This document shows positions 1,857-44,708 of a stretch of DNA of 56,773 nucleotides, in pieces; within the stretch, counting starts at the first letter, position 1; each line of letters opens with the position of its first letter. The stretch lies in IMG/VR virus record IMGVR_UViG_3300025128_000043, positions 1 through 56,773 of that record; one strand, given 5' to 3'. Source of the DNA: a virus (lineage: Duplodnaviria > Caudoviricetes). A model generated the notes under the pieces. It was not told the DNA's origin, did not search any database, and saw only the letters and a list, made by a program, of their open reading frames with translations. The position numbers and the translations under genes are program-made.

Positions 1857-1888
1857 AAGCCTCGGTCTTTGGATCGGGGCTTTTTTTT
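1857..1888 (+). terminator. Rho-independent terminator between convergent genes
   Basis: aagcctcggtc-tttg-gatcggggctt stem followed by a T tract. Confidence 0.85.
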
Positions 1889-1890
1889 AA

Positions 1891-3675
1891 CTAAGAAGAA
1901 AGCGTGTAAACGCTTAGTTTCTCGCTCTTGCCTTTGACTTCGATGGAATCTAGGTACTCCACCATATCAGGAACCTCTTGAGCAGTAGCCTCTCCGATCA
2001 ATACATCCTGCTCGTATTTTCTAGTGCTGGACTCTAACCTGGCAGCAACATTCACCGAATCACCGATAGCGGAATAGTCAAATCGCTTGTCTCCCCCGAC
2101 ATTGCCAATAACGCAAGGGCCAGTGTTGACTCCGATGCCAATGCCTAGCCTGGGCAATCCTTCTGCTTCTATTTCTTTGTTCAGTTCTTCCAATGCCACC
2201 AACATCATTGCGGCACAAGTCACTGCCCGTTCTTGATGGTCTTCACAGTCAACTGGTGCGCCCCAGAACGCCATCACGCAATCGCCCATGTACTTGTCTA
2301 TCGTTCCATCCAGTGATAGCACTACATCTGTCAATGCTGAAAGCAGTCTGTTGATAAGAGTCACTAACCCTTGGGGATCGTTGTTATTCTTGAAATGCTC
2401 TGAGATGGGGGTGAAGCCAACGATGTCGCAAAAGAGGAAACTTAATGTCTTGGTATCACCACCTAATCTCATCAGGGAAGGGTCATCGACCAACTGCTGA
2501 ACTAATTTTGGGGAAACATATGTCCCAAACATCCCCTTGATCTGGAGCTTTTGCCGATACTCGCTAATCATTCTCTGCCCAACACCCACTGAACCGATGG
2601 TCAGGCTACACAGAATAGGCCATGCCGCATCGACCAATATACCAGCCCTTAAATAGCCTAAGACCGATCCTGTTGCCGTCAGAGCGCCGACAACGACAAT
2701 GCCTAGTGGAACACTCATCACAGGCAAACGGCTTGCAGAGAAGGCTGTGAGCAGTCCTATGGCTAATATCAGCAAGACTTCTCCACCCAAGGCCCAATTT
2801 GGGCGAACAGGCGAGGTTCCTGCCAACAAAGTCTCGAACAGTGTCGCTTGAATCTCATGTGGAAACATAAGACCCCTCGGAGTAGGTACGAGCGGAGTAA
2901 TACCAGCCGCAGTCACACCCACAAAGATGATAGTACCTTCTGTCGGTTGCTGGGCAAACGTGGTTCCCCAATCAATCCATACCCTTCCTGCTGAATCAGT
3001 ATTGATGGTATCGAAGTTAGGCACTCTAACCGCCTCTATGCCTGTCTCAGAGCCTCTGACTTGGTAGGAAGGATCACCAGCCAGTCCACGCAAAACATCA
3101 AGCCCAAGGGCCGGATACAGGCTCTCACCAACCCTGACCACCATCGGCACTCGTCTAACTAGACCATCGACCTCTGGGGCCGTGTTAACTATGCCCGTAC
3201 CGATAGCTGAGTCCTGCAATACCTGCACATTCGGCAGGATGCCAGGGTAGTTAATGGCGTTTTCATTGACCTGACCCAGTGTGGCTACGCCGATATGCCA
3301 GCCTTCCTGTCGATCTGTGCTGGTTGTAGCTACGGCTGAGAGAAATGTTGGTAGTTGCCCCATGCTCTCGGCAAATTCAGCATCACCCCCAAATCGGTCT
3401 GTTTCGGGGAATAAAACCGAATACACAACTGCCGCTGCCCCTGAATCGAGAAGATAACGGTTAAGCTCTGCAAGTTGCTGACGAGGCCAGGGCCATTGAC
3501 CCCCCTCGGCTAATGCGGCTTCGTCTATGTTGTAAAGAGAAATGTTCTGACTTTGAACTGGCTCGGTAATCGTAAGCAGAGCATCAAAATACTTGAGTCT
3601 CAGAGTTTCTACAGGCCAGGGATCGACAACACGAAGAAGTAATAATCCAGCCAGCAAAGCAAGTAAAACCTTCAA
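1891..3675 (-). CDS. CHASE2-domain membrane class III adenylyl cyclase
   Basis: IDEAAL..GQWPWPR and DGLVRRVP (CHASE2); three TM helices; FCDIVGFT, DKYMGDCVMAFWG and DYSAIGDSVNVAARLES catalytic motifs. Confidence 0.93.
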   Translation of the reverse strand: MKVLLALLAGLLLLRVVDPWPVETLRLKYFDALLTITEPVQSQNISLYNIDEAALAEGGQWPWPRQQLAELNRYLLDSGAAAVVYSVLFPETDRFGGDAEFAESMGQLPTFLSAVATTSTDRQEGWHIGVATLGQVNENAINYPGILPNVQVLQDSAIGTGIVNTAPEVDGLVRRVPMVVRVGESLYPALGLDVLRGLAGDPSYQVRGSETGIEAVRVPNFDTINTDSAGRVWIDWGTTFAQQPTEGTIIFVGVTAAGITPLVPTPRGLMFPHEIQATLFETLLAGTSPVRPNWALGGEVLLILAIGLLTAFSASRLPVMSVPLGIVVVGALTATGSVLGYLRAGILVDAAWPILCSLTIGSVGVGQRMISEYRQKLQIKGMFGTYVSPKLVQQLVDDPSLMRLGGDTKTLSFLFCDIVGFTPISEHFKNNNDPQGLVTLINRLLSALTDVVLSLDGTIDKYMGDCVMAFWGAPVDCEDHQERAVTCAAMMLVALEELNKEIEAEGLPRLGIGIGVNTGPCVIGNVGGDKRFDYSAIGDSVNVAARLESSTRKYEQDVLIGEATAQEVPDMVEYLDSIEVKGKSEKLSVYTLSS

Positions 3676-3938
3676 TGTACGTCATACTCCCACCATTGAA
3701 TGATCGCAGACCACGGAATAACCATTGGTGTGTTAATAATATCAGGGTGTTTCTCGTAAATATCAGTGGATAAAATCAGACACTCTTCATTGTCTTTAGA
3801 AATAACATATCCTACGGTTGATCGCAGGACAGGAAGAAGCTCCATTGCGTCTTTCATCGTTACATCTTTTGGGTCGATCCAAGCATCCTCCCATATGACC
3901 TGAGCAATTTTATGTCGAGTGCTAAAACTGTCTACCAT
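3672..3938 (-). CDS. Conserved phage hypothetical protein
   Basis: WEDAW..STVGYV..IPW pattern; overlaps both neighbours. Confidence 0.7.
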   Translation of the reverse strand: MVDSFSTRHKIAQVIWEDAWIDPKDVTMKDAMELLPVLRSTVGYVISKDNEECLILSTDIYEKHPDIINTPMVIPWSAIIQWWEYDVH

Positions 3939-4225
3939 TTAACTTTATTTGCCCAATAAGCCGCACTCATTTTGCCTTTCTTAATGTTTTTTCCATGTCT
4001 TGCTTTGAAAGATTTTCGTCTGGCTTTCTGCTTGGCAGACTCTCCAGCTTTAGGCTTACCCGCCGTCTTGACCCCCTGCTGGCCGAAACGAATGGTCTTA
4101 ATTTTGTCACCTTCTTTGGCAACAACAATGTGAGACTTCTTTGGATGATTCGGGGTGCGCTTTGGCTTATTAAAACCAGCAACACCCGCCCTCGCTAATC
4201 TTGGATCTTTTTTCTTTGGCATCAC
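3932..4225 (-). CDS. Lys/Arg-rich small phage protein
   Basis: Very basic; RFGQQG..RKSFKARH..SAAYWANKVKW. Confidence 0.8.
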   Translation of the reverse strand: MMPKKKDPRLARAGVAGFNKPKRTPNHPKKSHIVVAKEGDKIKTIRFGQQGVKTAGKPKAGESAKQKARRKSFKARHGKNIKKGKMSAAYWANKVKW

Positions 4226-4473
4226 TTCCCAGCCTTTCTGTATTTACGGGTTTTTTTGGCTATCTTCTTAGGTTGTTTACTGACCTTCTTGCCTTTTTTG
4301 GTATCTTCTCGCTTTTTTCGAGTAGTTGCAGCGTATTCTTTAGAAGATAGCGCCTTAATTGCAGCACTCGGTAAGTACCTTTCACCTGTCTTTGCTGAAG
4401 GCTTACCACTTTTAGTACGCCATTTCTGCTTTGTCCAGGCTTTGAGGGACTTTTGAGATTTTTTCAAAGCCAT
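4222..4473 (-). CDS. Lys-rich small protein (DUF5872-like C-terminal half)
   Basis: SQKSLKAWTKQKW..ERYLP. Confidence 0.75.
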   Translation of the reverse strand: MALKKSQKSLKAWTKQKWRTKSGKPSAKTGERYLPSAAIKALSSKEYAATTRKKREDTKKGKKVSKQPKKIAKKTRKYRKAGK

Positions 4474-4655
4474 TACTTACCCCACTGACTCTTGGCTTTT
4501 TTCTTGGCAGTCTTGCCCAAATCGCCGTAATGAAAAATAGGCTTGCTCGTTTTAGTGTGTGTTTTGTTGGTGTGCAATGCACCATCAGGCATCTTGTGAT
4601 ATGAACCCTTCCATTCCTTACCGTCTTTCAGGTAATGCTTAACATTCATTCCCAT
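4473..4655 (-). CDS. Small Lys/His-rich protein
   Basis: HKMPDG..HT motif; stop/start overlaps with neighbours. Confidence 0.7.
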   Translation of the reverse strand: MGMNVKHYLKDGKEWKGSYHKMPDGALHTNKTHTKTSKPIFHYGDLGKTAKKKAKSQWGK

Positions 4656-4846
4656 TACTTATAACCTCCGCCTTTTGCTTTATATTCTTTAGCAAGCATT
4701 TGAGCTTTTCTAGCCGACCATTGACCTGCCTTACCGCCCTTAGTTCCTGCTTTAATCTTGTTAAACAGGTTTTTTCTCATGGTAGGCTTTGTATAATTGC
4801 CAGCCTCATTAACTTTTGACTTAGTTTTAGTTTTTTTCTTTGGCAT
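4655..4846 (-). CDS. Lys-rich small protein (DUF5872-like N-terminal half)
   Basis: YTKPTMRK..GGKAGQWSARKAQMLAKEYKAKGGGYK. Confidence 0.78.
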   Translation of the reverse strand: MPKKKTKTKSKVNEAGNYTKPTMRKNLFNKIKAGTKGGKAGQWSARKAQMLAKEYKAKGGGYK

Positions 4847-4854
4847 CTTGACCC

Positions 4855-5640
4855 CTAATCAAACTGATTAATTGTGACAGTTTTATTGCAATTAGATGTG
4901 CAATCAAGGGTTACTGTGTAACCTTTTGCACTTACCCCTGTTTGCGTAGCATTAACCGTATAGTTTCCTTGGGCTACAGTAATATTAGAAACATGAGCGC
5001 CATCCCCGCTCTGAGTTAAATTCACAGTGGAATTGTCGCTTGGGTTATTCTTAAACTCGATATCCCCATCTTTATTGCCTGAACCGCTCTGAGTAATCGT
5101 GGCATCGTTATTGTTACAATTATTACAAGACTTGATATAGGCATTGTGATCGCCTGATCCTGATTGAGTTACAGTCCATGCGCTGTCATCACCAAACGCA
5201 TAAAACTTGGCGTAATGCTCACCTGATCCTGATTGAGAAATGGTGTAAACATTATCATCGCCTGACATATAAACTTCAGCTTCCAAGTCATCGCCCGTTT
5301 GGGTGATTGTCATTTCGTTATTGTCTTCATCGGCATCTATGTAACCAATATTATCATTGCCATCCTGATTAATAGTGTACTCATTCCCCGTGTGATTGGT
5401 GTATTGACTATACGCTTTGGCAAGATTGCCTGTTCCATCCTGATCTATGTCAATAGTGGCGCTGGAGCAGGTATGGGTAGTATAGGTTCCGTTACTCAGA
5501 CCACACCAAACTCTCGCTGTGTTACCCGACCCGATCTGGTCTATATAAATACTGGTATTGGAACCTTTAGTGTCAATCTCTACAGAGTTATCTGATGCCC
5601 ACAGAGGAAAACTAAGGAGACTGATTAATATAAATCGCAT
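4855..5640 (-). CDS. Secreted curlin-repeat (CsgA/CsgB-like) protein 2
   Basis: Signal peptide (..PLWA/SD); about nine repeats of roughly 23 aa with I/V-x-Q-x-G-x-x-N/H. Confidence 0.8.
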   Translation of the reverse strand: MRFILISLLSFPLWASDNSVEIDTKGSNTSIYIDQIGSGNTARVWCGLSNGTYTTHTCSSATIDIDQDGTGNLAKAYSQYTNHTGNEYTINQDGNDNIGYIDADEDNNEMTITQTGDDLEAEVYMSGDDNVYTISQSGSGEHYAKFYAFGDDSAWTVTQSGSGDHNAYIKSCNNCNNNDATITQSGSGNKDGDIEFKNNPSDNSTVNLTQSGDGAHVSNITVAQGNYTVNATQTGVSAKGYTVTLDCTSNCNKTVTINQFD

Positions 5641-6694
5641 TTTCTCCTCCCCCGTTAATAATAATGTCCAGTTTTTTCCCTGCCGTCATTACAGAAATAT
5701 TGTACGCATTGCCCTTGTCAAGCTCTAAATCAAAGGTATTTTCCACGCTACGATAAACCGTCAGCACTTCCCCTTCAACAAACGTATAGGTCTGATTCTG
5801 TTGATCGAAACCAGGCAGAATACCCTCTATTTGCACTCCGCTTATTTCTGCTACTTCTTTTTTCTCGGTTGCCGATACCTCAATAATGTCCAGTAAGTCA
5901 GTCAGGAAATCGACATTCAACAGGTCAATGTCCAACCTGCCAATCTCGTCCTGTAATTCATCCTCGTCCAGTTCATTCTCATCAAGCTCTGTTTCTTCAA
6001 GCAAATCCACATCTAGGATGTTAGAAGCCGTGCCTGATTGTTCTTCCACCACCTCGGTAATCTCGTCAGGGGGGCTGACAATAAGCAGGTTGTCGATGAA
6101 TCCCAGTGTCATATTCGATAACACAACGGGCCGTGTCGGAGCCGCCTCTGAAACAGTGGTCATGGTTGCCTGAAACGGCTGGTTTAATACCACCACACTG
6201 GTAGCTGTTTCTACAGTAATCTCACCACTGGAACTCCCGTCTTCATTGGGCAGCAGGATAACCAGGCTACGGCCTATCTCGTCCACAGTAGTAGTAAAAT
6301 CCGTGCCTCGTATCGCAATAGTCGCGGTGGGTGTGCGGATTGCAATATTTTCTTTATTAATCCTGCCTAATGCACCTGTAAGGAACCTTGCTGTACCACT
6401 TGCCATGTTCAATGCTAAACGGCTACGAGCAGGATCAGGATCAAACACAAAGTCATCTATAACAATCTTGCTGTGTTCCGTGAGCCTTAAAACGGAGTCA
6501 TCCAGAAAAGATATTGCGAGCCTGCCGTTGCCAGTACGCACATCATCGTAACTGGCAATGTCTAAGTCCAGTTCTGCTGTAAGAGAATCTGTGGTGTCTT
6601 GTCGAACAACCTCACCGATACCGCGAAGCTCGGTTATCTCACCAACCTGAGCATTAACTGCCAGTGGAAAAAGAACTAACAGCCACTTGTGCAT
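5612..6694 (-). CDS. Exported FecR-domain protein with acidic linker
   Basis: Signal peptide (AVNA/Q); DDVRTG..FLDDSVLRLTEHS..IRTPTATIAIRGTDF FecR motifs. Confidence 0.85.
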   Translation of the reverse strand: MHKWLLVLFPLAVNAQVGEITELRGIGEVVRQDTTDSLTAELDLDIASYDDVRTGNGRLAISFLDDSVLRLTEHSKIVIDDFVFDPDPARSRLALNMASGTARFLTGALGRINKENIAIRTPTATIAIRGTDFTTTVDEIGRSLVILLPNEDGSSSGEITVETATSVVVLNQPFQATMTTVSEAAPTRPVVLSNMTLGFIDNLLIVSPPDEITEVVEEQSGTASNILDVDLLEETELDENELDEDELQDEIGRLDIDLLNVDFLTDLLDIIEVSATEKKEVAEISGVQIEGILPGFDQQNQTYTFVEGEVLTVYRSVENTFDLELDKGNAYNISVMTAGKKLDIIINGGGENAIYINQSP

Positions 6695-7389
6695 TGGTCA
6701 ACATCAATCACGCCACTGGTTGTAGTCGCAACGATATCAAGCACGTTGCTCACGCTACCGCCGTTACTGGTCTGGTCTACGTCAATATTGTTACTGTTTC
6801 CTGTGATATTTGCCGTAATAGAATGATCTGAGTTGTTGGCTTGGGTCGTGTCTATATCGTTAGAATCACCGTCAACCGTCCAGTTATTCACACATCCGAC
6901 CACGTTGCATGTCACAGCCAGGTTATTTGACGTTCCGCTAACATCGAAGTCGGCGTTCGCGGCTGTTGCTGTTGCTGCATCACCCTGAGTGTATACCAGC
7001 ACATTGGAGTCTCCAGTAGCAGCAAAATCGAAGTCGGTATTCTGGACATCACCTGTTGCGCCAAGCGCCAGCGTCTGCGTATTAGAATCACCAGTAGAAG
7101 ACAACGTGAAGCTAGTTGAGTTACCCTGTGCCACTGTCGCTGCAATCACATTTGAATCACCAATCTGGTCAATATCAACAGTCATACCTGTTCCTGTAAG
7201 GGAAACTCTTGCATTGCTAGTGCCTATTACGTTTGAGCCACCAATCTGGTCGATATTCATCGTCAATGCTGACGACCCACCGCTTTGAGTAATATAAATA
7301 GAATTGTTTGCCGCTAATGCAGAAACAGCAAACGCTAAGAACAACAAATAAAAGGCCCAGACTACACAAAAGTTAATTAAGATTTTCAT
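6676..7389 (-). CDS. Secreted curlin-like beta-solenoid protein 1
   Basis: Signal peptide (ALA/AN); repeats IDQIGGSN, IDQIGDSN, TGDSN, GTSN, GDSN, GNSN. Confidence 0.75.
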   Translation of the reverse strand: MKILINFCVVWAFYLLFLAFAVSALAANNSIYITQSGGSSALTMNIDQIGGSNVIGTSNARVSLTGTGMTVDIDQIGDSNVIAATVAQGNSTSFTLSSTGDSNTQTLALGATGDVQNTDFDFAATGDSNVLVYTQGDAATATAANADFDVSGTSNNLAVTCNVVGCVNNWTVDGDSNDIDTTQANNSDHSITANITGNSNNIDVDQTSNGGSVSNVLDIVATTTSGVIDVDQCTSGC

Positions 7390-8203
7390 TTTCGGTCTCC
7401 TCTGTTTGTGGCTGATAATCCCACAAGTCCTGTGCTATGCCCTGATGCACTATTTCAAGCACTGCTTGCTCAATGGCACTCCTGACGGCATAGGTTGCTG
7501 TTTCATTTCTAGCAACGCCAGCTTCAACCTCAACTAATTCAGTACCGTTTTCCGTAAATCTAAACGTATCAAATCCCGTTGATGTTGAATATACCTGTTT
7601 ACTGGTGATTACATTTAATAAAATTTGTCCGGTTTGCACCAAAACAACTCTGAGAGCCACTGTAACCTCGTCTACGCGATGTTGTGCGTTAAGCCCTATG
7701 CCCAGATACCTAGCGCCTATACCGCCGCTTCTGAGGTTTGTGTCGTAACCAATGATACCACCTGACATTATCAATCCGCTGAACAACAATGGCTGTAGCT
7801 GGTTTGCACCCTCACCGTCATAAGTGCTTCTGGTGGATATAATCAGTTGTCTTTCCCGCGTGAGGGAGTCTAATTCACCCCGTTCCGCGATTAAAAACCA
7901 TTTTCCATCTCCCGCAGCCATGAGTGCGTCAATCAGGAAAGAATCAGCCCCCTGCGTTACAGCAGTAGAAAATAACGCCATGTTATCCGCCGTGGCCCTT
8001 TGTCCGGTCATATCCAAAAAAGAATAAACGCTAACTACAGCCTTCTGGCGTGGCATGGGTAAATTAACCAGTTCTGTCAGCGTAGGGCGCTTTACCTCTG
8101 GTGGTGGCGAGCAGTAATTACTTAGCGTCCCGCATCGGTACGGATCAACACTAACACAACCAGAAAGTGCTAATACTGCTAAACATAAAGTTAGATACCG
8201 CAC
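7373..8203 (-). CDS. csgG: Curli secretion channel lipoprotein CsgG
   Basis: Lipobox LSGC; VSVYSFLDMTGQ, FSTAVTQGA, ER..LTRERQLI, GGIIGYDTN..GGIGARYLGIG, DEVTVALR. Confidence 0.93.
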   Translation of the reverse strand: MRYLTLCLAVLALSGCVSVDPYRCGTLSNYCSPPPEVKRPTLTELVNLPMPRQKAVVSVYSFLDMTGQRATADNMALFSTAVTQGADSFLIDALMAAGDGKWFLIAERGELDSLTRERQLIISTRSTYDGEGANQLQPLLFSGLIMSGGIIGYDTNLRSGGIGARYLGIGLNAQHRVDEVTVALRVVLVQTGQILLNVITSKQVYSTSTGFDTFRFTENGTELVEVEAGVARNETATYAVRSAIEQAVLEIVHQGIAQDLWDYQPQTEETENENLN

Positions 8204-8655
8204 TCGTCCGTACTACAAATACCGAAAGTTCCCACAGGGATTCTTATTTCGGTAATTGCTCCGTCTGTATCAGTAACTGTCAAAACGATTTCAGTACCTG
8301 TATTAACAAAGGCAATGCTGTTGCCTTCCAGATCAATAACGCCGCCTGAACCACCTGTCTCAGAGTTAAACAAAGATTCTGCTAAATCTCTGGAAAGCTG
8401 GGAAAAAATTCTTGATTCAAGATTTCTTATAAATTTTGCAAGCGTAGTGTTTTCCTCAGCCCTTAGTGCTTCTTCTGCCTTGGCCTCAGCTTCCTCCCGA
8501 AGAGACTGTTTGCGGCTACGCTCCTGCTCGTCAATGGTCAGATAATGGGCTGACTGTCCTATGCCATTAAAAGAAGGGTTTTTGAATTGAAATACAAGAT
8601 CGCTGGCTACTACAGGAGTCGCAAATAAACTAATCGTTATCAACCACTTGTTCAT
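8191..8655 (-). CDS. csgF: Curli assembly factor CsgF
   Basis: Signal peptide then LVFQFKNPSFNG (E. coli CsgF: MTFQFRNPNFGG); C-terminal TEIRIP; adjacent to csgG. Confidence 0.88.
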   Translation of the reverse strand: MNKWLITISLFATPVVASDLVFQFKNPSFNGIGQSAHYLTIDEQERSRKQSLREEAEAKAEEALRAEENTTLAKFIRNLESRIFSQLSRDLAESLFNSETGGSGGVIDLEGNSIAFVNTGTEIVLTVTDTDGAITEIRIPVGTFGICSTDECGI

Positions 8656-8893
8656 CTTTTTGCTCCCTCAACTCAATGACTGTATCCAGTTTCTGTTGTA
8701 GTCTAATGATGTCATTATCGAGCATCCTTATTCTGTCAATCAAAGCGATCAAGGTAACATTAGCATCTGCCAGTTTTGCCTTGATATTGTTGGTGATGAA
8801 GTTCCAGATGAAATGAATCATATAGAGCAAGCCCACCGTAGCGACTATCGGAAAGCCGTATTCGCTGACCGCTGCCGCTATACCTTCCATCAA
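8630..8893 (-). CDS. Small single-TM coiled-coil protein (GFPI motif, YvrJ-like)
   Basis: YGFPIVA TM segment then DRIRMLDNDIIRL. Confidence 0.75.
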   Translation of the reverse strand: MMEGIAAAVSEYGFPIVATVGLLYMIHFIWNFITNNIKAKLADANVTLIALIDRIRMLDNDIIRLQQKLDTVIELREQKDEQVVDND

Positions 8894-9171
8894 TCTCGCC
8901 TGGCATCTTCTTTCCCATCGGCTCTGGCAATTCTATTCAAATCGGGCCTGATACCAAGAACACTACACATCGTTGCGTCAAGTCTGACAATATCATGGTT
9001 CATCGTTTTTACGCGATTATCAAGGGATTGCACAATGCCGTGTATGCCATTCACCTGCCCGATAACGCTCTCAAGAATATATTTGATGGTCAGAAATATG
9101 AAGAACCCTGCAATCAAAGCAATAGCAATGGGAAACCCTACGTCACCGATCAGGGCAAAAGCCTCGTTCAT
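8890..9171 (-). CDS. Small single-TM coiled-coil protein, paralog of 8630-8893
   Basis: VGFPIAI TM segment then DNRVKTMNHDIVRL. Confidence 0.75.
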   Translation of the reverse strand: MNEAFALIGDVGFPIAIALIAGFFIFLTIKYILESVIGQVNGIHGIVQSLDNRVKTMNHDIVRLDATMCSVLGIRPDLNRIARADGKEDARRD

Positions 9172-9512
9172 TCTTCCTCACCCTTAAACTTCTTAGACTG
9201 ACCAGAGGTTCCAGCATAAATGCCAAAGACTGCTGCCATAGCACCGACAACAACCGACACCAATCCTGCCTGCTCTAAATTAGGCTCATCAATAGTCATA
9301 AACCACATGACAACTGCGTACAGCAAATAAATGTAAACACCCACAAAGACCCTTGGAAAGATACGCCACGCATCAACAGTTCTAGCCAGATGTATCCATT
9401 TCTGATACGGGTTTATACCAATATTGTTAGGTGTTACTTCAAGCTCAAGATTAACTTTCTTTTTGATTACGTCATTTTCAAGAATGACCGTTGGCCCATC
9501 TTTTTCAATCAT
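9168..9512 (-). CDS. Two-TM holin-like membrane protein
   Basis: DAWRIFPR followed by two TM helices and a charged tail; next to spanins. Confidence 0.55.
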   Translation of the reverse strand: MIEKDGPTVILENDVIKKKVNLELEVTPNNIGINPYQKWIHLARTVDAWRIFPRVFVGVYIYLLYAVVMWFMTIDEPNLEQAGLVSVVVGAMAAVFGIYAGTSGQSKKFKGEEE

Positions 9513-9514
9513 AA

Positions 9515-9922
9515 TTATTCTTCCGTTGTTTCAGCCTCATCTTTTCGAGTCGGGTCATTATCCCTATAATATTTAATAATATTAAGGACTTGGCGTATAT
9601 ACCTTCTCACATCTGCAAAATTATTGGAAAGGTTTTCATAGCCCTGAGAACTCAATCCGTAGTAGGCCATAGCTGGCGCATCCCCTTCATCATAGTTTTC
9701 TATGTACTCGCGCATCACAGAAGGATTCAGGACTGTCCATTCCACCTCAGAGGGAACCACAGACTCTGGTAGGGGGGGATGATACATAGGTGCAGGCTCG
9801 GTAATTGTAACCACCTCAACGGGCCTGACTTCAGGAACAGCAGTGCTTCCCCCGAACAGACCGCCCATTGTCGAACATCCTTGCAGCCATAACAGGCTAA
9901 TCAGCAGAAACCACTTCATCAA
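9515..9922 (-). CDS. o-spanin-like lipoprotein
   Basis: Lipobox LQGC; Pro-rich segment; overlaps the i-spanin gene. Confidence 0.75.
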   Translation of the reverse strand: MMKWFLLISLLWLQGCSTMGGLFGGSTAVPEVRPVEVVTITEPAPMYHPPLPESVVPSEVEWTVLNPSVMREYIENYDEGDAPAMAYYGLSSQGYENLSNNFADVRRYIRQVLNIIKYYRDNDPTRKDEAETTEE

Positions 9923-10316
9923 ATTGTCTCGGATTTGTTAACGCAGCTAGGGCTTCACCCACCTGCCTTGTGCCTCGGTTAACGGCATTTTCAATTAACC
10001 CAGGTCGTGCAATCGCCAGAGAGTTTAAGTCATGCCTGGCAAATGTATTGCGTAATTGCGTCACTTCCTGACGGGCTTCATCATTAGCCTCAGAAAGCTC
10101 TGCGATACGCGCTTGATTAACTCTTTGATTTTCCAGTTGTTCTTGCAACTGCGTATTCTGATTAGCAATCGTGCTTTCCAGAACCGCCTGATTGTTAACC
10201 GCAGTCTGTAACTCTACCTGTAACCGCTCTATCTGAGCCTTCTGCATATTGATATAGAAGTAAGAGCCTGCGGCAGTGGTTATCAAGGCAAACCCAAGAA
10301 GCAGGCTGAGTTTCAT
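9897..10316 (-). CDS. i-spanin-like protein
   Basis: N-terminal TM plus long coiled coil; ARPGLIE motif. Confidence 0.75.
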   Translation of the reverse strand: MKLSLLLGFALITTAAGSYFYINMQKAQIERLQVELQTAVNNQAVLESTIANQNTQLQEQLENQRVNQARIAELSEANDEARQEVTQLRNTFARHDLNSLAIARPGLIENAVNRGTRQVGEALAALTNPRQFDEVVSAD

Positions 10317-23195: not shown

Positions 23196-23921
23196 CTAAT
23201 TGACAATCTGTCGTGCGACTGTATTTTCGTTAAAACGATCCATGTCCCATACATTCAAGTTAGCTGCAACTGTTCTTCTTTCGCCTGGCCCTTCAAAGGG
23301 ATAGACCATGTGCTGAAGCCAACTTGGAAACATATAAAGTTTTCCTACCTGCGGTTGCAGAGAAGTAGATTGAGGTGGACATAAACGCTCCACATCCATC
23401 AAAGAATTTTTTCCATATTGAAAACATAAGTACCCATCGCAAGCTCCACTGGCGTTGTAAAGGTTATAACTCGGTGTACCTGCTGTTGGTTGATCCAATA
23501 TTTGCTGCGGAACTTTTGTCCACGTTGTTACCGAAAGTCCCATTATCGTCTTGGTTCCATGATCGTGAATAGGGTTATAGTCCCTTTCAAAAGAATGAAC
23601 CGACCAAAGCTCATCGACCTCAACTTTTCTGGTTCCAGACAGCATATTTCCAGTCTGTTGACCAAAATGTTTAAGATACTCAATGCCAAGACCACAGATC
23701 AGATCAGAAAATTCCTTTAACTCAGGAACTTCGTGATTCATCGTCAACTGTTGCCCATGCTTAATCTGTCCTACCAGAGTGCCTGCATGGGAACGACGCT
23801 CCTCGCTCTCAAGCAATTCATCAAGATACTGATTTAGATTAACCACCATCTCGCCTGGCAAGTCTGTCTCCAGCATAAATGCTGCTGGTAATGTCCAGAT
23901 ATTGACGTTTATATTAGCCAT
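23196..23921 (-). CDS. 2OG-Fe(II) oxygenase family protein
   Basis: YNPIHDH, FPSWLQHMVYPF, ERRTVAAN. Confidence 0.8.
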   Translation of the reverse strand: MANINVNIWTLPAAFMLETDLPGEMVVNLNQYLDELLESEERRSHAGTLVGQIKHGQQLTMNHEVPELKEFSDLICGLGIEYLKHFGQQTGNMLSGTRKVEVDELWSVHSFERDYNPIHDHGTKTIMGLSVTTWTKVPQQILDQPTAGTPSYNLYNASGACDGYLCFQYGKNSLMDVERLCPPQSTSLQPQVGKLYMFPSWLQHMVYPFEGPGERRTVAANLNVWDMDRFNENTVARQIVN

Positions 23922-33950: not shown

Positions 33951-35001
33951 TTTTCATCTCCTTAACGAGTTGTTTGGCGTACTGCTCATTGGTTAACCCA
34001 AGTCGTTTAGCGAGAGCGACTTGAGTGGACGTTAACTGCACTTTGCGTGGTTTAGCTCCATTGTTCCTTGCGGAAGGAGCAACCACGGACGAGGGTTGGC
34101 TGTTTGTCGCAGGCGCGGCTTGTCCATTACCGCTAACATCTTCCGATGTATTGTCCTCCCAGCCATAATCATTAAATCGGCCCCTCATGCCTTGATCTAT
34201 GTAAGTAAAATACTGATCTGAATTGGGCGATAGCCCATTATCCTTTATGGCTTCTTCATGGAGAGCATAAGCATACGCTGTCATGCCCTTATGTTCTTCA
34301 TCACCAAACCAAGGATTTTTTTCTCCCCATTCCTTTGCTTTCGGTTCCGGCTCAGGAATTGTCGGGGCAACAGGCTGTTGATAGGTAGATTGTACCTGCC
34401 TTTGATAAGCGGCCTGTTGTTCCGGTGTTGGCTGGGGTGGCAGATTATTTTCATAACGCTGCGCTTCATTCAGTTCAGCCTGAGCGCGAATCATCTCTTC
34501 CTGAGAAGAAACAATCGCATCCGTATTTCCTTCCTCGTAAGCCTTTCTATATTCAGCTTTGGCCTTATCTGCTGCCAACTCCGCCTTTTCTTTAATCTGC
34601 GATACCAGCACGTTCTCGCCACGATTAATCAAAGACTCGTATTCTTTGTTCTTCGCGGAAAGCTGCTGATTCTGCTGATTAAGCGTTTGAGCGGCCTTAA
34701 CCGCTTCATCTGCAAGACGCTCTGCCTCTCTTCGTTTGTAAGTGGCTTTGTCCAAACGCTTTCTGACACTGGCACTGTATTGATCCAGTTCTTCATCGCC
34801 TGTTGGTTCTTCTGCCGCTTTCTTGGAAGGTGGCTTATCGTCTATAATTTCCAAATCCAGATCGGACTGCTCAGTAGCGGTTTTCTCCTGATCGGACTTC
34901 TTGGCAATTTGCGTCTTAACACCGAAGAACTTGTCCTCGGCTGACGTTGGTGCAGCGATAGACTCTGCCTGGTCTATACTGGTTTCTGTTGCTTCACTCA
35001 T
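33943..35001 (-). CDS. Scaffolding protein
   Basis: Acidic coiled coil; KNPWFG; C-terminal LTSTQVALAKRLGLTNEQYAKQ. Confidence 0.72.
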   Translation of the reverse strand: MSEATETSIDQAESIAAPTSAEDKFFGVKTQIAKKSDQEKTATEQSDLDLEIIDDKPPSKKAAEEPTGDEELDQYSASVRKRLDKATYKRREAERLADEAVKAAQTLNQQNQQLSAKNKEYESLINRGENVLVSQIKEKAELAADKAKAEYRKAYEEGNTDAIVSSQEEMIRAQAELNEAQRYENNLPPQPTPEQQAAYQRQVQSTYQQPVAPTIPEPEPKAKEWGEKNPWFGDEEHKGMTAYAYALHEEAIKDNGLSPNSDQYFTYIDQGMRGRFNDYGWEDNTSEDVSGNGQAAPATNSQPSSVVAPSARNNGAKPRKVQLTSTQVALAKRLGLTNEQYAKQLVKEMKNG

Positions 35002-35417
35002 ACCTTTACGATACCCCGTGGGTCTTCGACCACAGCTTCTACGCTGTCGTCATTGATTAAACGGAACTCTTTCCCATGAACCGTGAATCTTGTTCCTGTG
35101 TAGGAGCGCATCACAATCCAATCCCCTTTTTTGCAAAACGGGCCTGTGGGAAAACGATCTTTATTACCATAAGCATCCGGCCCCATGTCCAAGACGAAAC
35201 CGACAATACTGCCGACTTCTTCATTGTGCATCGTTTCTCTAGCTTTAATAATACCGCCATCCGTTTTCTCATCAGGTTCTGGTAGAGCAATCAGTATCTT
35301 ATAGCCCTGTGGCTCTGGCATCTGACTGGCTTTGCGAGTCTCTGATTCATCAAGCTGAATTTCTTCAACCTTTTCCTCAGCCTCGTTTACTTCTGCTGTT
35401 GCTAATGATCTTGCCAT
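34998..35417 (-). CDS. GroES-like co-chaperonin
   Basis: PQGYKILI..EKTDGGII..MGPDAY..GDW..YTGT..RLINDDSVEAVV; start moved to ATG behind AGGAAG. Confidence 0.82.
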   Translation of the reverse strand: MARSLATAEVNEAEEKVEEIQLDESETRKASQMPEPQGYKILIALPEPDEKTDGGIIKARETMHNEEVGSIVGFVLDMGPDAYGNKDRFPTGPFCKKGDWIVMRSYTGTRFTVHGKEFRLINDDSVEAVVEDPRGIVKV

Positions 35418-35481
35418 TAGTTGTCTTCCTTGCACTGGAAATGGGTGTCCAGAGTCACCTGCGTTGCCTTATACAACGATG

Positions 35482-43856: not shown

Positions 43857-44708
43857 ATGGCTAAAAGAGACATTAAAAACGAAATAACAACCAAGATAAT
43901 AGAACTTATAGAGACACATGGAGCGGACTGGGTGAAGCCTTTCAGCTCATTGTGCGGCGCACCAGTTAATGCGCTAACTGGCAAGTCATACCGAGGCATG
44001 AATTCATTCTGGCTCGGACTACAAGGCCAGACCTATTGGGCCACCTACAAACAATGGCAGGAGTTAGGCGCTCAAGTAATCAAAGGCTCTAAGGCTTCAG
44101 GCATAGCAGTACCCATGCCGATTAAAGATAAAAAAACGGATGAAGTAAAAGGCTTATATTTTCGTGGTGCGTCCGTGTTTTCAGCCGCTCAGGTTGAAGG
44201 CTGGGAAGCTCCAACAGTAGAAACTCCAGACTTAACCGAAGTATTGGCCAATGTTGATACCTATATAAAGAATGTCGGCGCGGATGTTCGGCACAATTCA
44301 ACTGGGGGCGCGTACTACAACCCCTCTAATGACTTCATACAAATGCCGCACAGAGAGCAATTCACCGCTACCGATACCAGCACCGCGACCGAGTGCTACT
44401 ACAGCACTCTACTGCACGAACATACTCATTGGACGGGACACAAGTCCAGGCTTAACAGGTTAGAGCTAAAGAATAAACGCGGGTATGCTTTTGAGGAGCT
44501 AATCGCGGAGCTCGGAGCCTGTTTTTTATCCGTGGATCTTGGTATTTCCGTGGAAGTGAGGCCCGACCATTCAAAATATATTGCTGGCTGGCTTCAAGCT
44601 CTTACCAGTGAAGATGGTTCCGACTACATATGGAAAGCGGCGAGCGAGGCACAAAAAGCCGTGGATTACCTCAACGCGGCACAGCAAGCGGAATCAATCG
44701 CCGCATAA
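43857..44708 (+). CDS. ardC: ArdC-like antirestriction / ssDNA-binding protein
   Basis: N..TGKSYRGMN, WATYKQWQELGAQV.KG, AYYNP..D.IQMP, LLHEHTHWTGH.SRLNR, YAFEELIAELGA. Confidence 0.92.
   Translation: MAKRDIKNEITTKIIELIETHGADWVKPFSSLCGAPVNALTGKSYRGMNSFWLGLQGQTYWATYKQWQELGAQVIKGSKASGIAVPMPIKDKKTDEVKGLYFRGASVFSAAQVEGWEAPTVETPDLTEVLANVDTYIKNVGADVRHNSTGGAYYNPSNDFIQMPHREQFTATDTSTATECYYSTLLHEHTHWTGHKSRLNRLELKNKRGYAFEELIAELGACFLSVDLGISVEVRPDHSKYIAGWLQALTSEDGSDYIWKAASEAQKAVDYLNAAQQAESIAA

What the first reader, a model, noticed from the sequence alone, without database searches (positions are those of the whole stretch)
1891..9171. Phage-encoded curli-type secretion module with its own curlins, coupled to FecR and a CHASE2 adenylyl cyclase
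Seen on the minus strand: two small TM proteins, csgF, csgG, curlin-like 1, FecR-domain protein and curlin-like 2, each overlapping the next. After five short ORFs comes a CHASE2 cyclase. Export signals and catalytic motifs look intact; no CsgE, CsgC or CsgD is recognisable. Established: CsgG/CsgF form the curli pore. csgF/csgG have been reported in marine myophages (HTVC008M, Melnitz), where a lysis role was proposed. CHASE2 cyclases of Sinorhizobium (CyaD1/D2/K) act in trans-envelope signalling. Inference: this podovirus-like phage carries pore, substrates, periplasmic relay and cAMP output, i.e. a surface-display/sensing system. It could remodel the infected cell surface (superinfection exclusion, aggregation, grazing avoidance) or tune cAMP or lysis timing. 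I know of no functional description of the whole module.
Basis: partly seen in the sequence, partly recalled or inferred. Interest (0 to 1): 0.95.

Follow-up and report, generated by a model that had tools for sequence, protein, structure and literature searches.

The report
Phage curli secretion module with cyclase
A marine phage carries a complete small curli-type secretion system joined to an envelope sensor that makes cAMP; the gene set is real and widespread, but it was described from sequence in 2022 and its function is still untested.

Summary
On the minus strand of a 98%-complete podophage genome lie two small membrane proteins, CsgF, CsgG, a curlin-like protein, a FecR-domain protein and a second curlin. 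Each of these ORFs overlaps the next. Five short basic ORFs follow, then a CHASE2 class III adenylyl cyclase with all six catalytic residues.

The gene order recurs in 17 related viral contigs, and the cyclase is present in 13 of the 13 that reach far enough. It also recurs in the myophages HTVC008M and Melnitz. Contigs from an independent metagenome bridge most of the gene junctions, so it is not a chimera.

It is not new. Wittmers et al. 2022 (PMC9599517) described this module, including FecR and the cyclase, in HTVC023P-type podophages and pelagimyophages.

What I add:
- The cyclase sensor is CHASE2, and FecR with CHASE2 is a recurrent bacterial gene pair.
- The published "histidine kinases" show no kinase domain.
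- Two Caulobacteraceae MAGs hold the whole module in a cellular context.
- The FecR protein ends in a curlin-like strand.
- In most podophage relatives the module sits beside the spanin (lysis) genes.

No experiment has tested the function.

The parts
8890..9171 (-). Small membrane protein (93 aa): one N-terminal TM segment, a coiled-coil-like tail and a conserved C-terminal ...DGKxDARRD. It is the first gene of the module.
   Evidence: phrog_18771, E 5e-28. TM segment at residues 11-29. Present upstream of csgF in podophage, myophage and MAG-binned phage loci. No kinase domain found.
8630..8893 (-). Paralogue of the previous gene (87 aa), always paired with it.
   Evidence: phrog_18771, E 1e-26. 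Alignment A4.
8191..8655 (-). CsgF-like secreted protein (154 aa).
   Evidence: PF10614, E 3e-14, covering profile positions 6-132 of 132. phrog_35372.
7373..8203 (-). CsgG-like outer-membrane lipoprotein (276 aa, GTG start, LSGC lipobox).
   Evidence: PF03783, E 4e-48. E. coli CsgG structures at 2e-45 over residues 2-269. The constriction loop differs from E. coli's.
6676..7389 (-). Curlin-like beta-solenoid protein 1 (237 aa) with a signal peptide and about 8 QxGxxN repeats.
   Evidence: Curlin_rpt below cut-off. Repeat invariants in alignment A5. AF2 model pLDDT 82. Best structural match is CsgA 8c50, Z 19.1.
5612..6694 (-). Secreted FecR-domain protein (360 aa). It has an N-terminal PupR-like beta domain, an acidic low-confidence linker, and a C-terminal part that ends in a curlin-like strand (NAIYINQS).
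   Evidence: PF04773, E 2e-11. Model residues 47-202 match PupR 6ovk, Z 15.0. C-terminal motif conserved.
4855..5640 (-). Curlin-repeat protein 2 (261 aa).
   Evidence: Curlin_rpt, E 2e-16, 3 stretches. Weak CsgA/CsgB NCBIfam matches, 1.6e-12 and 5.7e-10.
3672..4846 (-). Five short ORFs (63, 60, 83, 97 and 88 aa; the first four are very basic) lying between curlin 2 and the cyclase. They are not part of the conserved module.
   Evidence: Relatives carry between 0 and 5 of them at this spot. They match phrog_17747, phrog_14910 and phrog_7595. Similar DNA occurs in HMO-2011, CRP roseophages and pelagiphages.
1891..3675 (-). CHASE2 class III adenylyl cyclase (594 aa, TTG start). Layout: TM segment, periplasmic CHASE2 domain, TM cluster, cytoplasmic catalytic domain.
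   Evidence: PF05226 at 1e-35 and PF00211 at 6e-21. phrog_35576 at 2e-179. PDB cyclases up to 6e-36. Catalytic residues and TM segments.
9168..9512 (-). Protein with two TM segments (114 aa), immediately upstream of the module. Holin-like by shape only.
   Evidence: phrog_10198. TM segments at 56-74 and 82-100. Directly precedes the first small TM gene in 12 of the 12 viral loci that include this side.
9515..10316 (-). Spanin pair: i-spanin at 9897-10316 and o-spanin lipoprotein at 9515-9922. This is context and marks the lysis cassette.
   Evidence: phrog_739 at 3e-11 and phrog_812 at 3e-13, both labelled 'Rz-like spanin'.
1857..1882 (.). GC-rich hairpin with a T-run, lying between the end of the cyclase gene and the convergent plus-strand genes. 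Likely end of the transcription unit.
   Evidence: Terminator-like site with 11 pairs. This is a consensus match only.

Best explanation
This is a virus-borne, self-contained type VIII (curli-type) secretion module of the reduced kind, lacking CsgE, CsgC and CsgD. It is joined to a two-part envelope sensor.

Proposed working, step by step:
1. The operon lies in the same orientation directly downstream of the phage's spanin genes, so I infer it is made late in infection. This timing is not shown.
2. CsgG, a lipoprotein, and CsgF form an outer-membrane channel.
3. The two signal-peptide-bearing curlin-repeat beta-solenoid proteins are its substrates and are exported to the surface of the infected cell.
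4. The FecR-domain protein is exported to the periplasm. It is not an iron regulator. Its N-terminal PupR-like domain is a protein-binding module, and its C-terminus ends in a curlin-like strand.
5. I infer that this protein links the secretion or fibre state to the periplasmic CHASE2 domain of the membrane cyclase.
6. The cyclase then makes cAMP in the cytoplasm.

Shown here: the identity and intactness of every part, their strict co-inheritance in two phage families, and the existence of FecR-CHASE2 pairs in bacteria.

Inferred: fibre export, FecR-CHASE2 coupling, and the pay-off for the phage. The pay-off could be surface remodelling for aggregation or exclusion, or control of lysis timing.
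For: Parts:
- Pfam hits above the curated cut-offs for CsgG, CsgF, Curlin_rpt (curlin 2), FecR, CHASE2 and Guanylate_cyc.
- CsgG matches E. coli CsgG at 2e-45.
- The curlin 1 model (pLDDT 82) best matches a solved CsgA: Z 19.1, 200 residues aligned, 22% identity.
- FecR model residues 47-202 match the PupR cell-surface-signalling domain: Z 15.0, rmsd 2.4.
- The cyclase has both metal aspartates, the Lys/Asp adenine pair, and the Asn and Arg (roles recalled).

Co-inheritance:
- The same order is found in 17 viral loci.
- The cyclase is present in 13 of the 13 loci that extend past curlin 2.
- The same order occurs in HTVC008M and Melnitz.
- It also occurs in phage contigs binned into MAGs, L023-L025, L027 and L028.
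- ORFs overlap from the first small TM gene through curlin 2.

Sensor pair in bacteria:
- Among 71 more distant bacterial FecR loci, 10 have a CHASE2 protein next door. Nine were confirmed by Pfam: eight cyclases and one histidine kinase. The tenth, L060, has an insertion-sequence integrase in between and only the cyclase domain reached Pfam.
- A FecR-CHASE2 kinase pair is conserved in Burkholderiales and PAO1 (PMC5192318, passages).
- Sinorhizobium CHASE2 cyclases respond to a protein signal through an outer-membrane beta-barrel protein (PMC13001267, passages).

Link between FecR and curlins:
- The FecR gene sits between the two curlin genes and overlaps both.
- Its C-terminus ends in N-x-I-x-I-x-Q-type sequence, like the first curlin strand, in 11 of 11 intact homologues.

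Cellular counterpart: the whole six-gene set, without the small TM pair, lies among ordinary metabolic genes in two Caulobacteraceae MAGs.

Published support: Wittmers et al. report transcripts of the viral genes in metatranscriptomes and a near 1:1 ratio of the components across 65 ocean stations (PMC9599517, passages).
Against: - No experiment exists for any step.
- Curlin 1 is below Pfam's cut-off, and Foldseek found no match at E 0.001 or better.
- The CsgG constriction loop differs from E. coli's. Of the Tyr/Asn/Phe trio (recalled), only Phe is kept. The channel may therefore behave differently.
- No CsgE-like gate or adaptor is present.
- The C-terminal 140 residues of the FecR protein were modelled with low confidence (pLDDT under 50). 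The 'curlin-like strand' therefore rests on a short sequence motif.
- The window encodes no cyclic-nucleotide-binding protein, so the receiver of cAMP is unknown and must be a host protein.
- FecR-CHASE2 pairs occur without any CsgG in bacteria (0 of 71 loci by my profiles). The pair could therefore act independently of secretion.
- In the window five unrelated genes separate the cyclase from the rest of the module.
Confidence: 0.6

Rival explanations
1. Lysis device. The CsgG/CsgF channel is repurposed as a gated outer-membrane or pinholin-like pore that times or assists lysis (Buchholz et al. 2022). The two small TM proteins would act as holin/antiholin-like partners. The curlins and the sensor would be accessory or regulatory.
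For: - In this window the module follows the spanins and a holin-shaped protein with two TM segments.
- Spanin homologues flank the module in 10 of 17 viral loci: upstream in 7, directly after the cyclase in 3.
- The small TM pair is present in all phage versions that include that side, but not in the two cellular loci.
- The constriction loop of CsgG is altered.
- The proposal itself is in PMC9004378 (passages).
Against: - This phage already has its own endolysin and spanin pair.
- Both curlin genes keep signal peptides and invariant repeat motifs across phage families. That is hard to explain if only a pore is needed.
- In the myophages the module is not next to recognisable lysis genes.
- The same six genes exist in a non-phage context.
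Confidence: 0.15
2. Two independent cargo units. The secretion genes and the FecR/CHASE2 cyclase pair are functionally separate. The sensor pair raises cAMP in the infected cell in response to some envelope or external cue, for host takeover, and merely travels with the curli genes.
For: - FecR-CHASE2 pairs occur without CsgG in 10 of 71 bacterial loci, and none of the 71 has CsgG or CsgF.
- The cyclase is separated from the rest by 0 to 5 unrelated ORFs.
- In L024 the cyclase lies on the opposite strand.
- Wittmers et al. note that the cyclase and the second curlin are not always present in viral contigs (PMC9599517, passage).
Against: - The FecR gene is wedged between the two curlin genes with overlapping ORFs in every locus examined.
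- Its C-terminus carries a curlin-like strand.
- The module cyclases form one well-supported clade, apart from the bacterial FecR-adjacent cyclases (quick tree, SH-aLRT 100).
Confidence: 0.2
3. Import channel. The ungated CsgG pore lets nutrients or cofactors into the infected cell. This is one of the options given by Wittmers et al. and by Zaragoza-Solas et al.
For: No CsgE gate was found. The idea is stated in PMC9599517 and is quoted from the 2020 pelagimyophage paper in PMC9004378 (passages).
Against: It does not explain two conserved secreted curlin-repeat proteins or CsgF. The FecR domain here lacks the anti-sigma and TM parts of iron-citrate regulators.
Confidence: 0.04
4. Artefact: a chimeric assembly of phage and host DNA, or decaying non-functional cargo.
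For: The window is a metagenome-assembled record.
Against: - The same arrangement occurs in 17 other viral contigs.
- Error-free contigs from a run of another sample and study bridge these junctions: cyclase/small ORFs, small ORF/curlin 2/FecR, FecR/curlin 1, curlin 1/CsgG, and CsgG through to the spanin.
- Module GC is 45.5%, against 44.8% for the rest of the genome.
- All ORFs are intact and the catalytic residues are kept.
Confidence: 0.01

Closest known systems
Viral T8SS (curli) module of HTVC023P-type podophages and pelagimyophages (Wittmers et al. 2022, mSystems, PMC9599517)
   Same: Same gene set and order: one or two small upstream genes, CsgF, CsgG, curlin, FecR, curlin, adenylate cyclase. 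No CsgC, CsgD or CsgE. The phage type also matches: the window's portal is about 45% identical to those of HTVC023P, HTVC027P and 023Pt_psg01.
   Different: - In the window five small basic ORFs lie between the second curlin and the cyclase.
- Window GC is 44.9%, against 35.4% for HTVC023P. A SAR11 host is therefore doubtful for this lineage.
- The paper calls the small upstream genes histidine kinases. I found no kinase domain.
- The paper never uses the word CHASE2 (0 occurrences).
- The paper states that FecR and the cyclase are not within bacterial T8SS operons. Two Caulobacteraceae MAGs do have them there.
- I did not see the paper's figures or supplements.
HTVC008M and Melnitz myophage curli regions (KC465899, MZ577097; Buchholz et al. 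2022, PMC9004378)
   Same: Syntenic: two small ORFs, CsgF, CsgG, curlin, FecR, curlin, cyclase. Identity to the window: CsgG 43-46%, cyclase 36-38%, FecR 37-38%.
   Different: These are T4-like myophages. The cyclase directly follows the second curlin, and the module is not beside spanins. In the passages I read, the Melnitz paper treats the operon as lacking csgA/B, and it does not mention the cyclase or FecR (0 occurrences each).
E. coli / Salmonella curli system (csgBAC-csgDEFG)
   Same: CsgG lipoprotein channel (2e-45 to solved structures), CsgF, and secreted Q/N/G-rich repeat subunits.
   Different: No CsgE, CsgC or CsgD. The constriction loop differs. The subunits are longer (237 and 261 aa) with about 8 repeats. 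A FecR protein and a cyclase are added.
FecR-domain protein plus CHASE2 sensor pairs of bacteria (Burkholderia 'BiofilmReg' operon and PA4035-type pair, PMC5192318; Sinorhizobium CyaD1/D2/K with NsrA, PMC13001267)
   Same: A secreted FecR-domain protein is encoded next to a CHASE2 membrane sensor. In Sinorhizobium the output is cAMP and the signal passes through an outer-membrane beta-barrel protein.
   Different: The bacterial pairs I examined have no CsgG, CsgF or curlins nearby (0 of 71 loci). The Burkholderia version outputs through a histidine kinase and its FecR protein carries a LysM domain. How FecR and CHASE2 communicate is unknown in every case.
FecR/PupR anti-sigma regulators of TonB-dependent cell-surface signalling
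   Same: The fold of the periplasmic domain: Z 15.0 to PupR 6ovk and Z 14.0 to 4m0n.
   Different: The phage protein has a signal peptide in place of the cytoplasmic anti-sigma domain and TM helix. The window encodes no sigma factor or TonB-dependent transducer that I detected. It should not be read as an iron regulator.

Membership tests
Type VIII (curli) secretion system | CsgG-family outer-membrane lipoprotein channel | tested here: met
   PF03783, 164 bits against a cut-off of 20.8. 2e-45 to E. coli CsgG structures over residues 2-269. An LSGC lipobox is visible in the sequence.
Type VIII (curli) secretion system | CsgF accessory protein | tested here: met
   PF10614, 53.6 bits against a cut-off of 25.8, full profile length. 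Direct comparison with solved CsgF is only weak, E 0.46.
Type VIII (curli) secretion system | Secreted curlin-repeat subunits | tested here: met
   Curlin 2: Curlin_rpt, 60.3 bits against a cut-off of 20.7. Curlin 1: below cut-off at 15.4 bits, but it has periodic invariant QxGxxN motifs and its best fold match is CsgA 8c50, Z 19.1.
Type VIII (curli) secretion system | CsgE periplasmic adaptor, CsgC chaperone and CsgD regulator (enterobacterial type) | tested here: not met
   No PF10627, PF10610 or PF00196 match in the whole window at E 0.1 or better. According to PMC9599517 section 8, these are also lacking in alphaproteobacterial operons.
Type VIII (curli) secretion system | Subunits form extracellular amyloid fibres exported through CsgG | not testable with these tools
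   This needs expression, dye binding and microscopy.
Class III adenylyl cyclase | Catalytic domain with two metal-binding Asp, a Lys/Asp adenine-specifying pair, and transition-state Asn and Arg | tested here: met
   PF00211, 75.4 bits against a cut-off of 21.9. PDB cyclases up to 6e-36. D417, D465, K461, D533, N542 and R546 are present. The assignment of roles is recalled, not computed.
CHASE2 sensor proteins | Extracytoplasmic CHASE2 domain between an N-terminal TM segment and a TM cluster, upstream of an output domain | tested here: met
   PF05226, 123.6 bits against a cut-off of 26.3, residues 9-310. Hydrophobic segments at 1-19 and 295-342.
FecR-type anti-sigma factor (iron-citrate regulator) | Periplasmic FecR domain | tested here: met
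   PF04773, 44.8 bits against a cut-off of 24. Fold Z 15.0 to PupR.
FecR-type anti-sigma factor (iron-citrate regulator) | N-terminal cytoplasmic anti-sigma domain and a TM helix, with a partner sigma factor and TonB-dependent transducer | tested here: not met
   The FecR domain begins at residue 50, straight after a short hydrophobic N-terminus, and no further Pfam domain was found. No sigma factor or transducer appeared among the annotated window ORFs.
Histidine kinase (published label for the two small upstream genes) | HisKA-type phospho-acceptor domain and HATPase_c ATP-binding domain | tested here: not met
   The proteins are 87 and 93 aa. Pfam at E 10 or better gives only YvrJ, below cut-off. 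NCBIfam gives nothing. A profile against PDB gives only coiled-coil-type matches at E 0.017 or worse. The Atlas gives only viral hypothetical clusters.
Holin (considered for the two-TM protein at 9168-9512 and for the small TM pair) | Small membrane protein of a lysis cassette that forms lethal membrane lesions | tested here: inconclusive
   The size, the TM segments and the position beside spanins fit. No holin family matched.

The most novel reading that the evidence does not exclude
The FecR-domain protein is a fibre-coupled tether that makes the module a surface-contact or secretion-state sensor.

In this reading:
- Its folded N-terminal domain stays in the periplasm. Part of that domain resembles the 'cell surface anchoring domain' 5ix9 (Z 7.1). 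The same FecR domain sits at the N-terminus of an RTX/cadherin adhesin beside a CHASE2 cyclase in bacterial locus L088.
- Its acidic linker passes through the CsgG/CsgF channel.
- Its terminal curlin-like strand caps or nucleates the curlin fibre outside the cell.
- Pull on the fibre, or its loss, is relayed to CHASE2 and converted into cAMP.
- cAMP, together with the phage-specific pair of small membrane proteins, sets the time of lysis or blocks superinfection.

This would be a new way for a virus to read the outside of its host cell. It would also give FecR-CHASE2 pairs in bacteria a mechanism.
Probability: 0.1. Interest if true: 0.8.

Novelty: already known. Interest (0 to 1): 0.4.

Why it matters
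A phage that installs a whole secretion system plus a second-messenger sensor in its host changes what an infected cell is. Hosts of the cultured relatives, SAR11 and OM43, are reported to lack curli genes, so the capability would be entirely virus-given (PMC9599517, PMC9004378; passages). The genes are reported at all 65 ocean stations surveyed, at about 0.1% of viral proteins (PMC9599517, passage).

The open question is functional: what the fibres and the cAMP do for the phage.

My additions narrow the experiments:
- Treat FecR and the CHASE2 cyclase as a sensor pair with bacterial counterparts.
- Drop the iron-regulator and histidine-kinase readings.
- Test the C-terminal curlin-like strand of the FecR protein.
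- Test the link to the lysis cassette.

As a discovery claim, however, the module is already in print.

Tried and rejected
- Complex prediction of the CHASE2 periplasmic domain (residues 22-296, alignment A3) with the FecR N-terminal domain (residues 17-205, alignment A2). The result was 'no answer', score 0.01 against a mark of 0.32. It says nothing either way.
- Foldseek of the curlin 1 model against PDB found no match at E 0.001 or better. The wider VIA search was needed.
- phmmer of CsgF against PDB gave only E 0.46-0.54 to solved CsgF. The Pfam profile carries that assignment.
- Search for RNA evidence: no RNA holder was listed among 22 runs, so nothing can be said on expression from my own data.
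- Some stretches had no listed bridging contig in run X3 (1314-1871, 2926-3194, 4475-4679, 7597-8013). This is uninformative, because only 32 of 461 laid pieces were listed.
- Chimeric-assembly reading: rejected.
- Iron-regulator reading of FecR: rejected, because the anti-sigma part and its partners are missing.
- Histidine-kinase reading of the small TM genes: rejected.
- Caulobacteraceae loci as the donor of the viral module: not supported. Their cyclases nest inside the phage-associated clade as sister to the phage-like contig L028 (SH-aLRT 99). This is a quick tree only, because the careful search did not finish in time. The module's GC is below that of its flanks (51.8 against 55.5%). 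Only 2 of 201 genomes sampled from that family have the full-length protein. The direction of transfer stays open.
- The careful tree was not resumed.

Full report
WHAT IS THERE

The window is a phage genome, a linear IMG/VR record that CheckV rates 98% complete. It encodes terminase, portal, capsid, tailspike, endolysin, internal virion and ejection proteins, a spanin pair and a primase/helicase. No tRNA was found. Its portal is about 45% identical to those of the podophages HTVC023P, HTVC027P and 023Pt_psg01. Structural genes match HTVC023P by tblastx.

On the minus strand, downstream of the spanins (9515-10316) and a protein with two TM segments (9168-9512), lie the following genes (Pfam):
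- Two paralogous small proteins with one TM segment each (8890-9171 and 8630-8893).
- CsgF (8191-8655), E 3e-14.
- CsgG (7373-8203), E 4e-48.
- Curlin-like protein 1 (6676-7389).
- A FecR-domain protein (5612-6694), E 2e-11.
- Curlin-repeat protein 2 (4855-5640), E 2e-16.
- Five short ORFs (3672-4846).
- A CHASE2 plus class III cyclase protein (1891-3675), E 1e-35 and 6e-21.

Successive ORFs from 9171 down to 4855 overlap by 4 to 29 bases. A terminator-like hairpin at 1857-1882 closes the unit against convergent plus-strand genes. No CsgE, CsgC or GerE-type regulator is encoded anywhere in the window.

STATE OF THE PARTS

CsgG aligns with E. coli CsgG at 2e-45 and has a lipobox. In the constriction loop only the Phe of the E. 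coli Tyr/Asn/Phe trio is kept. The identity of that trio is recalled from memory.

Curlin 1 misses Pfam's cut-off (15.4 against 20.7 bits), but three results support it:
- It is 27% identical to curlin 2.
- It carries QxGxxN motifs every 22-27 residues that are invariant in 20 homologues.
- It folds as strand-turn-strand repeats (pLDDT 82), and the best match is the solved CsgA of Pontibacter: Z 19.1, 200 residues aligned, 22% identity. Foldseek alone found nothing significant.

The cyclase has an N-terminal TM segment, a periplasmic CHASE2 domain, a TM cluster at 295-342, and a catalytic domain with D417, D465, K461, D533, N542 and R546. By recalled knowledge of class III cyclases, this is the full catalytic set with the Lys/Asp pair of adenylyl rather than guanylyl cyclases. 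Its best solved relatives are cyanobacterial and other class III cyclases.

The FecR protein models well only in residues 16-200. Residues 47-202 match the PupR cell-surface-signalling domain (Z 15.0). Residues 14-110 match a 'cell surface anchoring domain', 5ix9 (Z 7.1). The protein has a signal-peptide-like N-terminus instead of an anti-sigma domain and TM helix, so it is not an iron-citrate regulator.

IS IT MORE THAN CHANCE OR AN ARTEFACT?

A scan of viral contigs with CsgG returned 17 loci at 69-98% identity. All keep the same order.
- The two-TM gene directly precedes the small TM pair in 12 of the 12 loci that include that side.
- The cyclase is present in 13 of the 13 loci that extend past curlin 2. 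The other four loci end earlier.

Between curlin 2 and the cyclase the loci carry a variable number of the window's small ORFs:
- None: 5 loci. Their cyclases are only 35-40% identical to the window's.
- One: 4 loci.
- Two: 2 loci.
- All five: 2 loci.

The small ORFs are therefore insertions into the module, not part of it. Similar DNA for them occurs in HMO-2011, CRP roseophages and several pelagiphages.

Spanin homologues flank the module in 10 of the 17 loci: upstream in 7, directly after the cyclase in 3. Three loci with flanks show none, and four lack the upstream flank.

The T4-like myophages HTVC008M and Melnitz have the same order, with the cyclase directly after the second curlin.

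Module GC equals that of the rest of the genome, 45.5 against 44.8%.

In a metagenome run from another sample and study, error-free contigs bridge these junctions: cyclase/small ORFs, small ORF/curlin 2/FecR, FecR/curlin 1, curlin 1/CsgG, and CsgG through to the spanin. A chimeric join is excluded.

WHAT IS ALREADY KNOWN

Wittmers et al. 2022 (PMC9599517; abstract, text passages and section 8 read; figures and supplements not seen) describe the module in nine HTVC023P-type podophage genomes and in pelagimyophages. They call it a T8SS module with this order: one or two 'histidine kinases', CsgF, CsgG, CsgA/B, FecR, a second CsgA/B and an adenylate cyclase.
- They report the absence of CsgC, CsgD and CsgE.
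- They report alphaproteobacterial affinities and transfer between the two virus families.
- They found the genes at all 65 stations examined and found transcripts in metatranscriptomes.
- They propose aggregation ('sibling capture'), defence against superinfection, or import.

Buchholz et al. 2022 (PMC9004378, passages) propose a lysis-timing pore for Melnitz. They do not mention the cyclase or FecR.

I found no experimental study. The 2020 pelagimyophage paper (PMC7029224) I saw only as a search listing and as cited by the two papers above.

The finding as stated is therefore already in print at the sequence level.

1. The cyclase's sensor is a CHASE2 domain, a word absent from the 2022 paper. 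FecR with CHASE2 is a recurring bacterial pair.
   - A scan of bacterial genomes with a FecR alignment kept 80 loci.
   - Of the 71 more distant ones, 10 have a CHASE2 protein beside FecR and none has CsgG or CsgF by my profiles.
   - Pfam confirmed eight CHASE2 cyclases and one CHASE2 histidine kinase.
   - The same pairing is described for Burkholderiales and PAO1 (PMC5192318, passages).
   - Sinorhizobium CHASE2 cyclases sense a protein through an outer-membrane beta-barrel (PMC13001267, passages).

2. The two small TM proteins show no kinase domain by Pfam, NCBIfam, a PDB profile search or the protein Atlas. They are present in every phage version that includes that side. They are absent from the two cellular loci.

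3. Two Caulobacteraceae MAGs carry CsgF, CsgG, two curlins, FecR and a CHASE2 cyclase in one string. The flanks hold methylmalonyl-CoA mutase, acyl-CoA dehydrogenase, amidohydrolase and TauD genes, with a single weak PHROG match (a metallo-phosphoesterase, E 2e-7) among 11 flank ORFs. FecR and the cyclase can therefore sit inside a cellular T8SS operon.
   - These copies are rare: 2 of 201 genomes sampled from that family.
   - Their GC is lower than that of their flanks.
   - They nest within the phage clade in a quick cyclase tree.
   - So they may be acquisitions rather than the source.
   - Other 'bacterial' hits (L023-L025, L028) are phage contigs binned into MAGs. L027 was not checked separately.

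4. The FecR protein ends in a curlin-like strand. The window has NAIYINQS, against NSIYITQS at the start of mature curlin 1. An equivalent x-I-x-I-x-Q end is present in 11 of 11 intact homologues, from podophages, myophages and the cellular loci.

5. In bacterial locus L088 a FecR domain heads a 1318-residue RTX/cadherin adhesin. It lies next to a TolC-like gene and a CHASE2 cyclase. This is a second case of FecR tied to a secreted surface protein and this sensor.

HOW IT MOST LIKELY WORKS

I commit to the following model, with overall confidence 0.6 that the outline is right.
- The operon directly follows the lysis genes in the same orientation, so I infer late expression. This is not shown.
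- CsgG and CsgF build an outer-membrane channel.
- The two curlin-like proteins are exported through it.
- The FecR-domain protein connects the secretion or fibre state to CHASE2.
- The cyclase then makes cAMP for a host receiver. No cyclic-nucleotide-binding protein is encoded by the phage.

The identities of the parts and their co-inheritance are shown. Export, coupling and the benefit to the phage are inferred. My one attempt to test the FecR-CHASE2 contact gave no verdict.

Rivals, with my confidence in each:
- A lysis pore: 0.15.
- Two independent cargo units: 0.2.
- An import channel: 0.04.
- An artefact: 0.01.

HOST

Window GC is 44.9%, and its close relatives range from 41 to 53%. HTVC023P is 35.4% and the HTVC008M locus 34.2%. 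The SAR11 host assumed for the published group may not apply to this lineage. I could not assign a host.

VERDICT

The gene module is real, intact and under evident selection, and it is biologically intriguing. However, it was described in 2022 for this very phage type. The novelty class is 'already known', and this window is one more member. Interest is 0.4. That score reflects the unresolved function and the new leads listed above, not the discovery itself.

Noticed in passing
window 3672-4846 (-): There are five short ORFs, four of them very basic (matches to phrog_17747, phrog_14910 and phrog_7595). Similar DNA occurs in HMO-2011, CRP roseophages, pelagiphages and others. Summed contig depth over them in seawater metagenomes is far above that of their neighbours, up to 695 against about 4-15 in run X6. 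They are therefore shared by many abundant marine phages. phrog_7595-type proteins also resemble part of a 'minor head protein and DNA pilot' family. Function unknown.
   Followed up: partly
L088:9848-13801 with neighbours at 6092-8335 and 8410-9717: In a bacterial locus a FecR domain forms the N-terminus of a 1318-aa RTX/cadherin adhesin. It lies beside a TolC-like outer-membrane efflux protein and a CHASE2 adenylyl cyclase.
   Followed up: no
L047:13597-15072, L042:11255-12547: Possible cAMP-related neighbours of bacterial FecR/CHASE2 cyclase pairs: an MscS-type channel with a cyclic-nucleotide-binding domain, and a GAF-SpoIIE phosphatase.
   Followed up: no
L023, L024, L025, L028 (genome contigs): These contigs are filed under MAGs labelled Planctomycetaceae, Luteolibacter, Pelagibacter and Bacteroidetes. 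They carry the module together with phage genes, and so look like phage contigs mis-binned into MAGs. L024 has T4-type DNA polymerase, clamp, clamp loader and RegA. L025 has a spanin and a tail chaperone. In L024 the cyclase is on the opposite strand and there are three small TM paralogues.
   Followed up: partly
whole window: GC is 44.9%, against 35.4% for the cultured pelagiphage HTVC023P. Relatives with the module span 41-53% GC. This lineage's host may not be SAR11.
   Followed up: partly
window 23196-23921 (-), 34998-35435 (-), 43857-44708 (+): Other accessory genes: a 2OG-Fe(II) oxygenase, a GroES-like co-chaperonin and an anti-restriction-type protein (phrog_7245, E 7e-67).
   Followed up: no
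L005, L007, L009, L011, L015 cyclases: In the five loci where the cyclase directly follows curlin 2, it is only 35-40% identical to the window's, although the neighbouring genes are 67-92% identical. At the second substrate-specifying position four sequences carry M, S, T or A instead of Asp. Which loci these are was not resolved. Either the cyclase gene was exchanged within the module, or the alignment wobbles at this position.
   Followed up: partly
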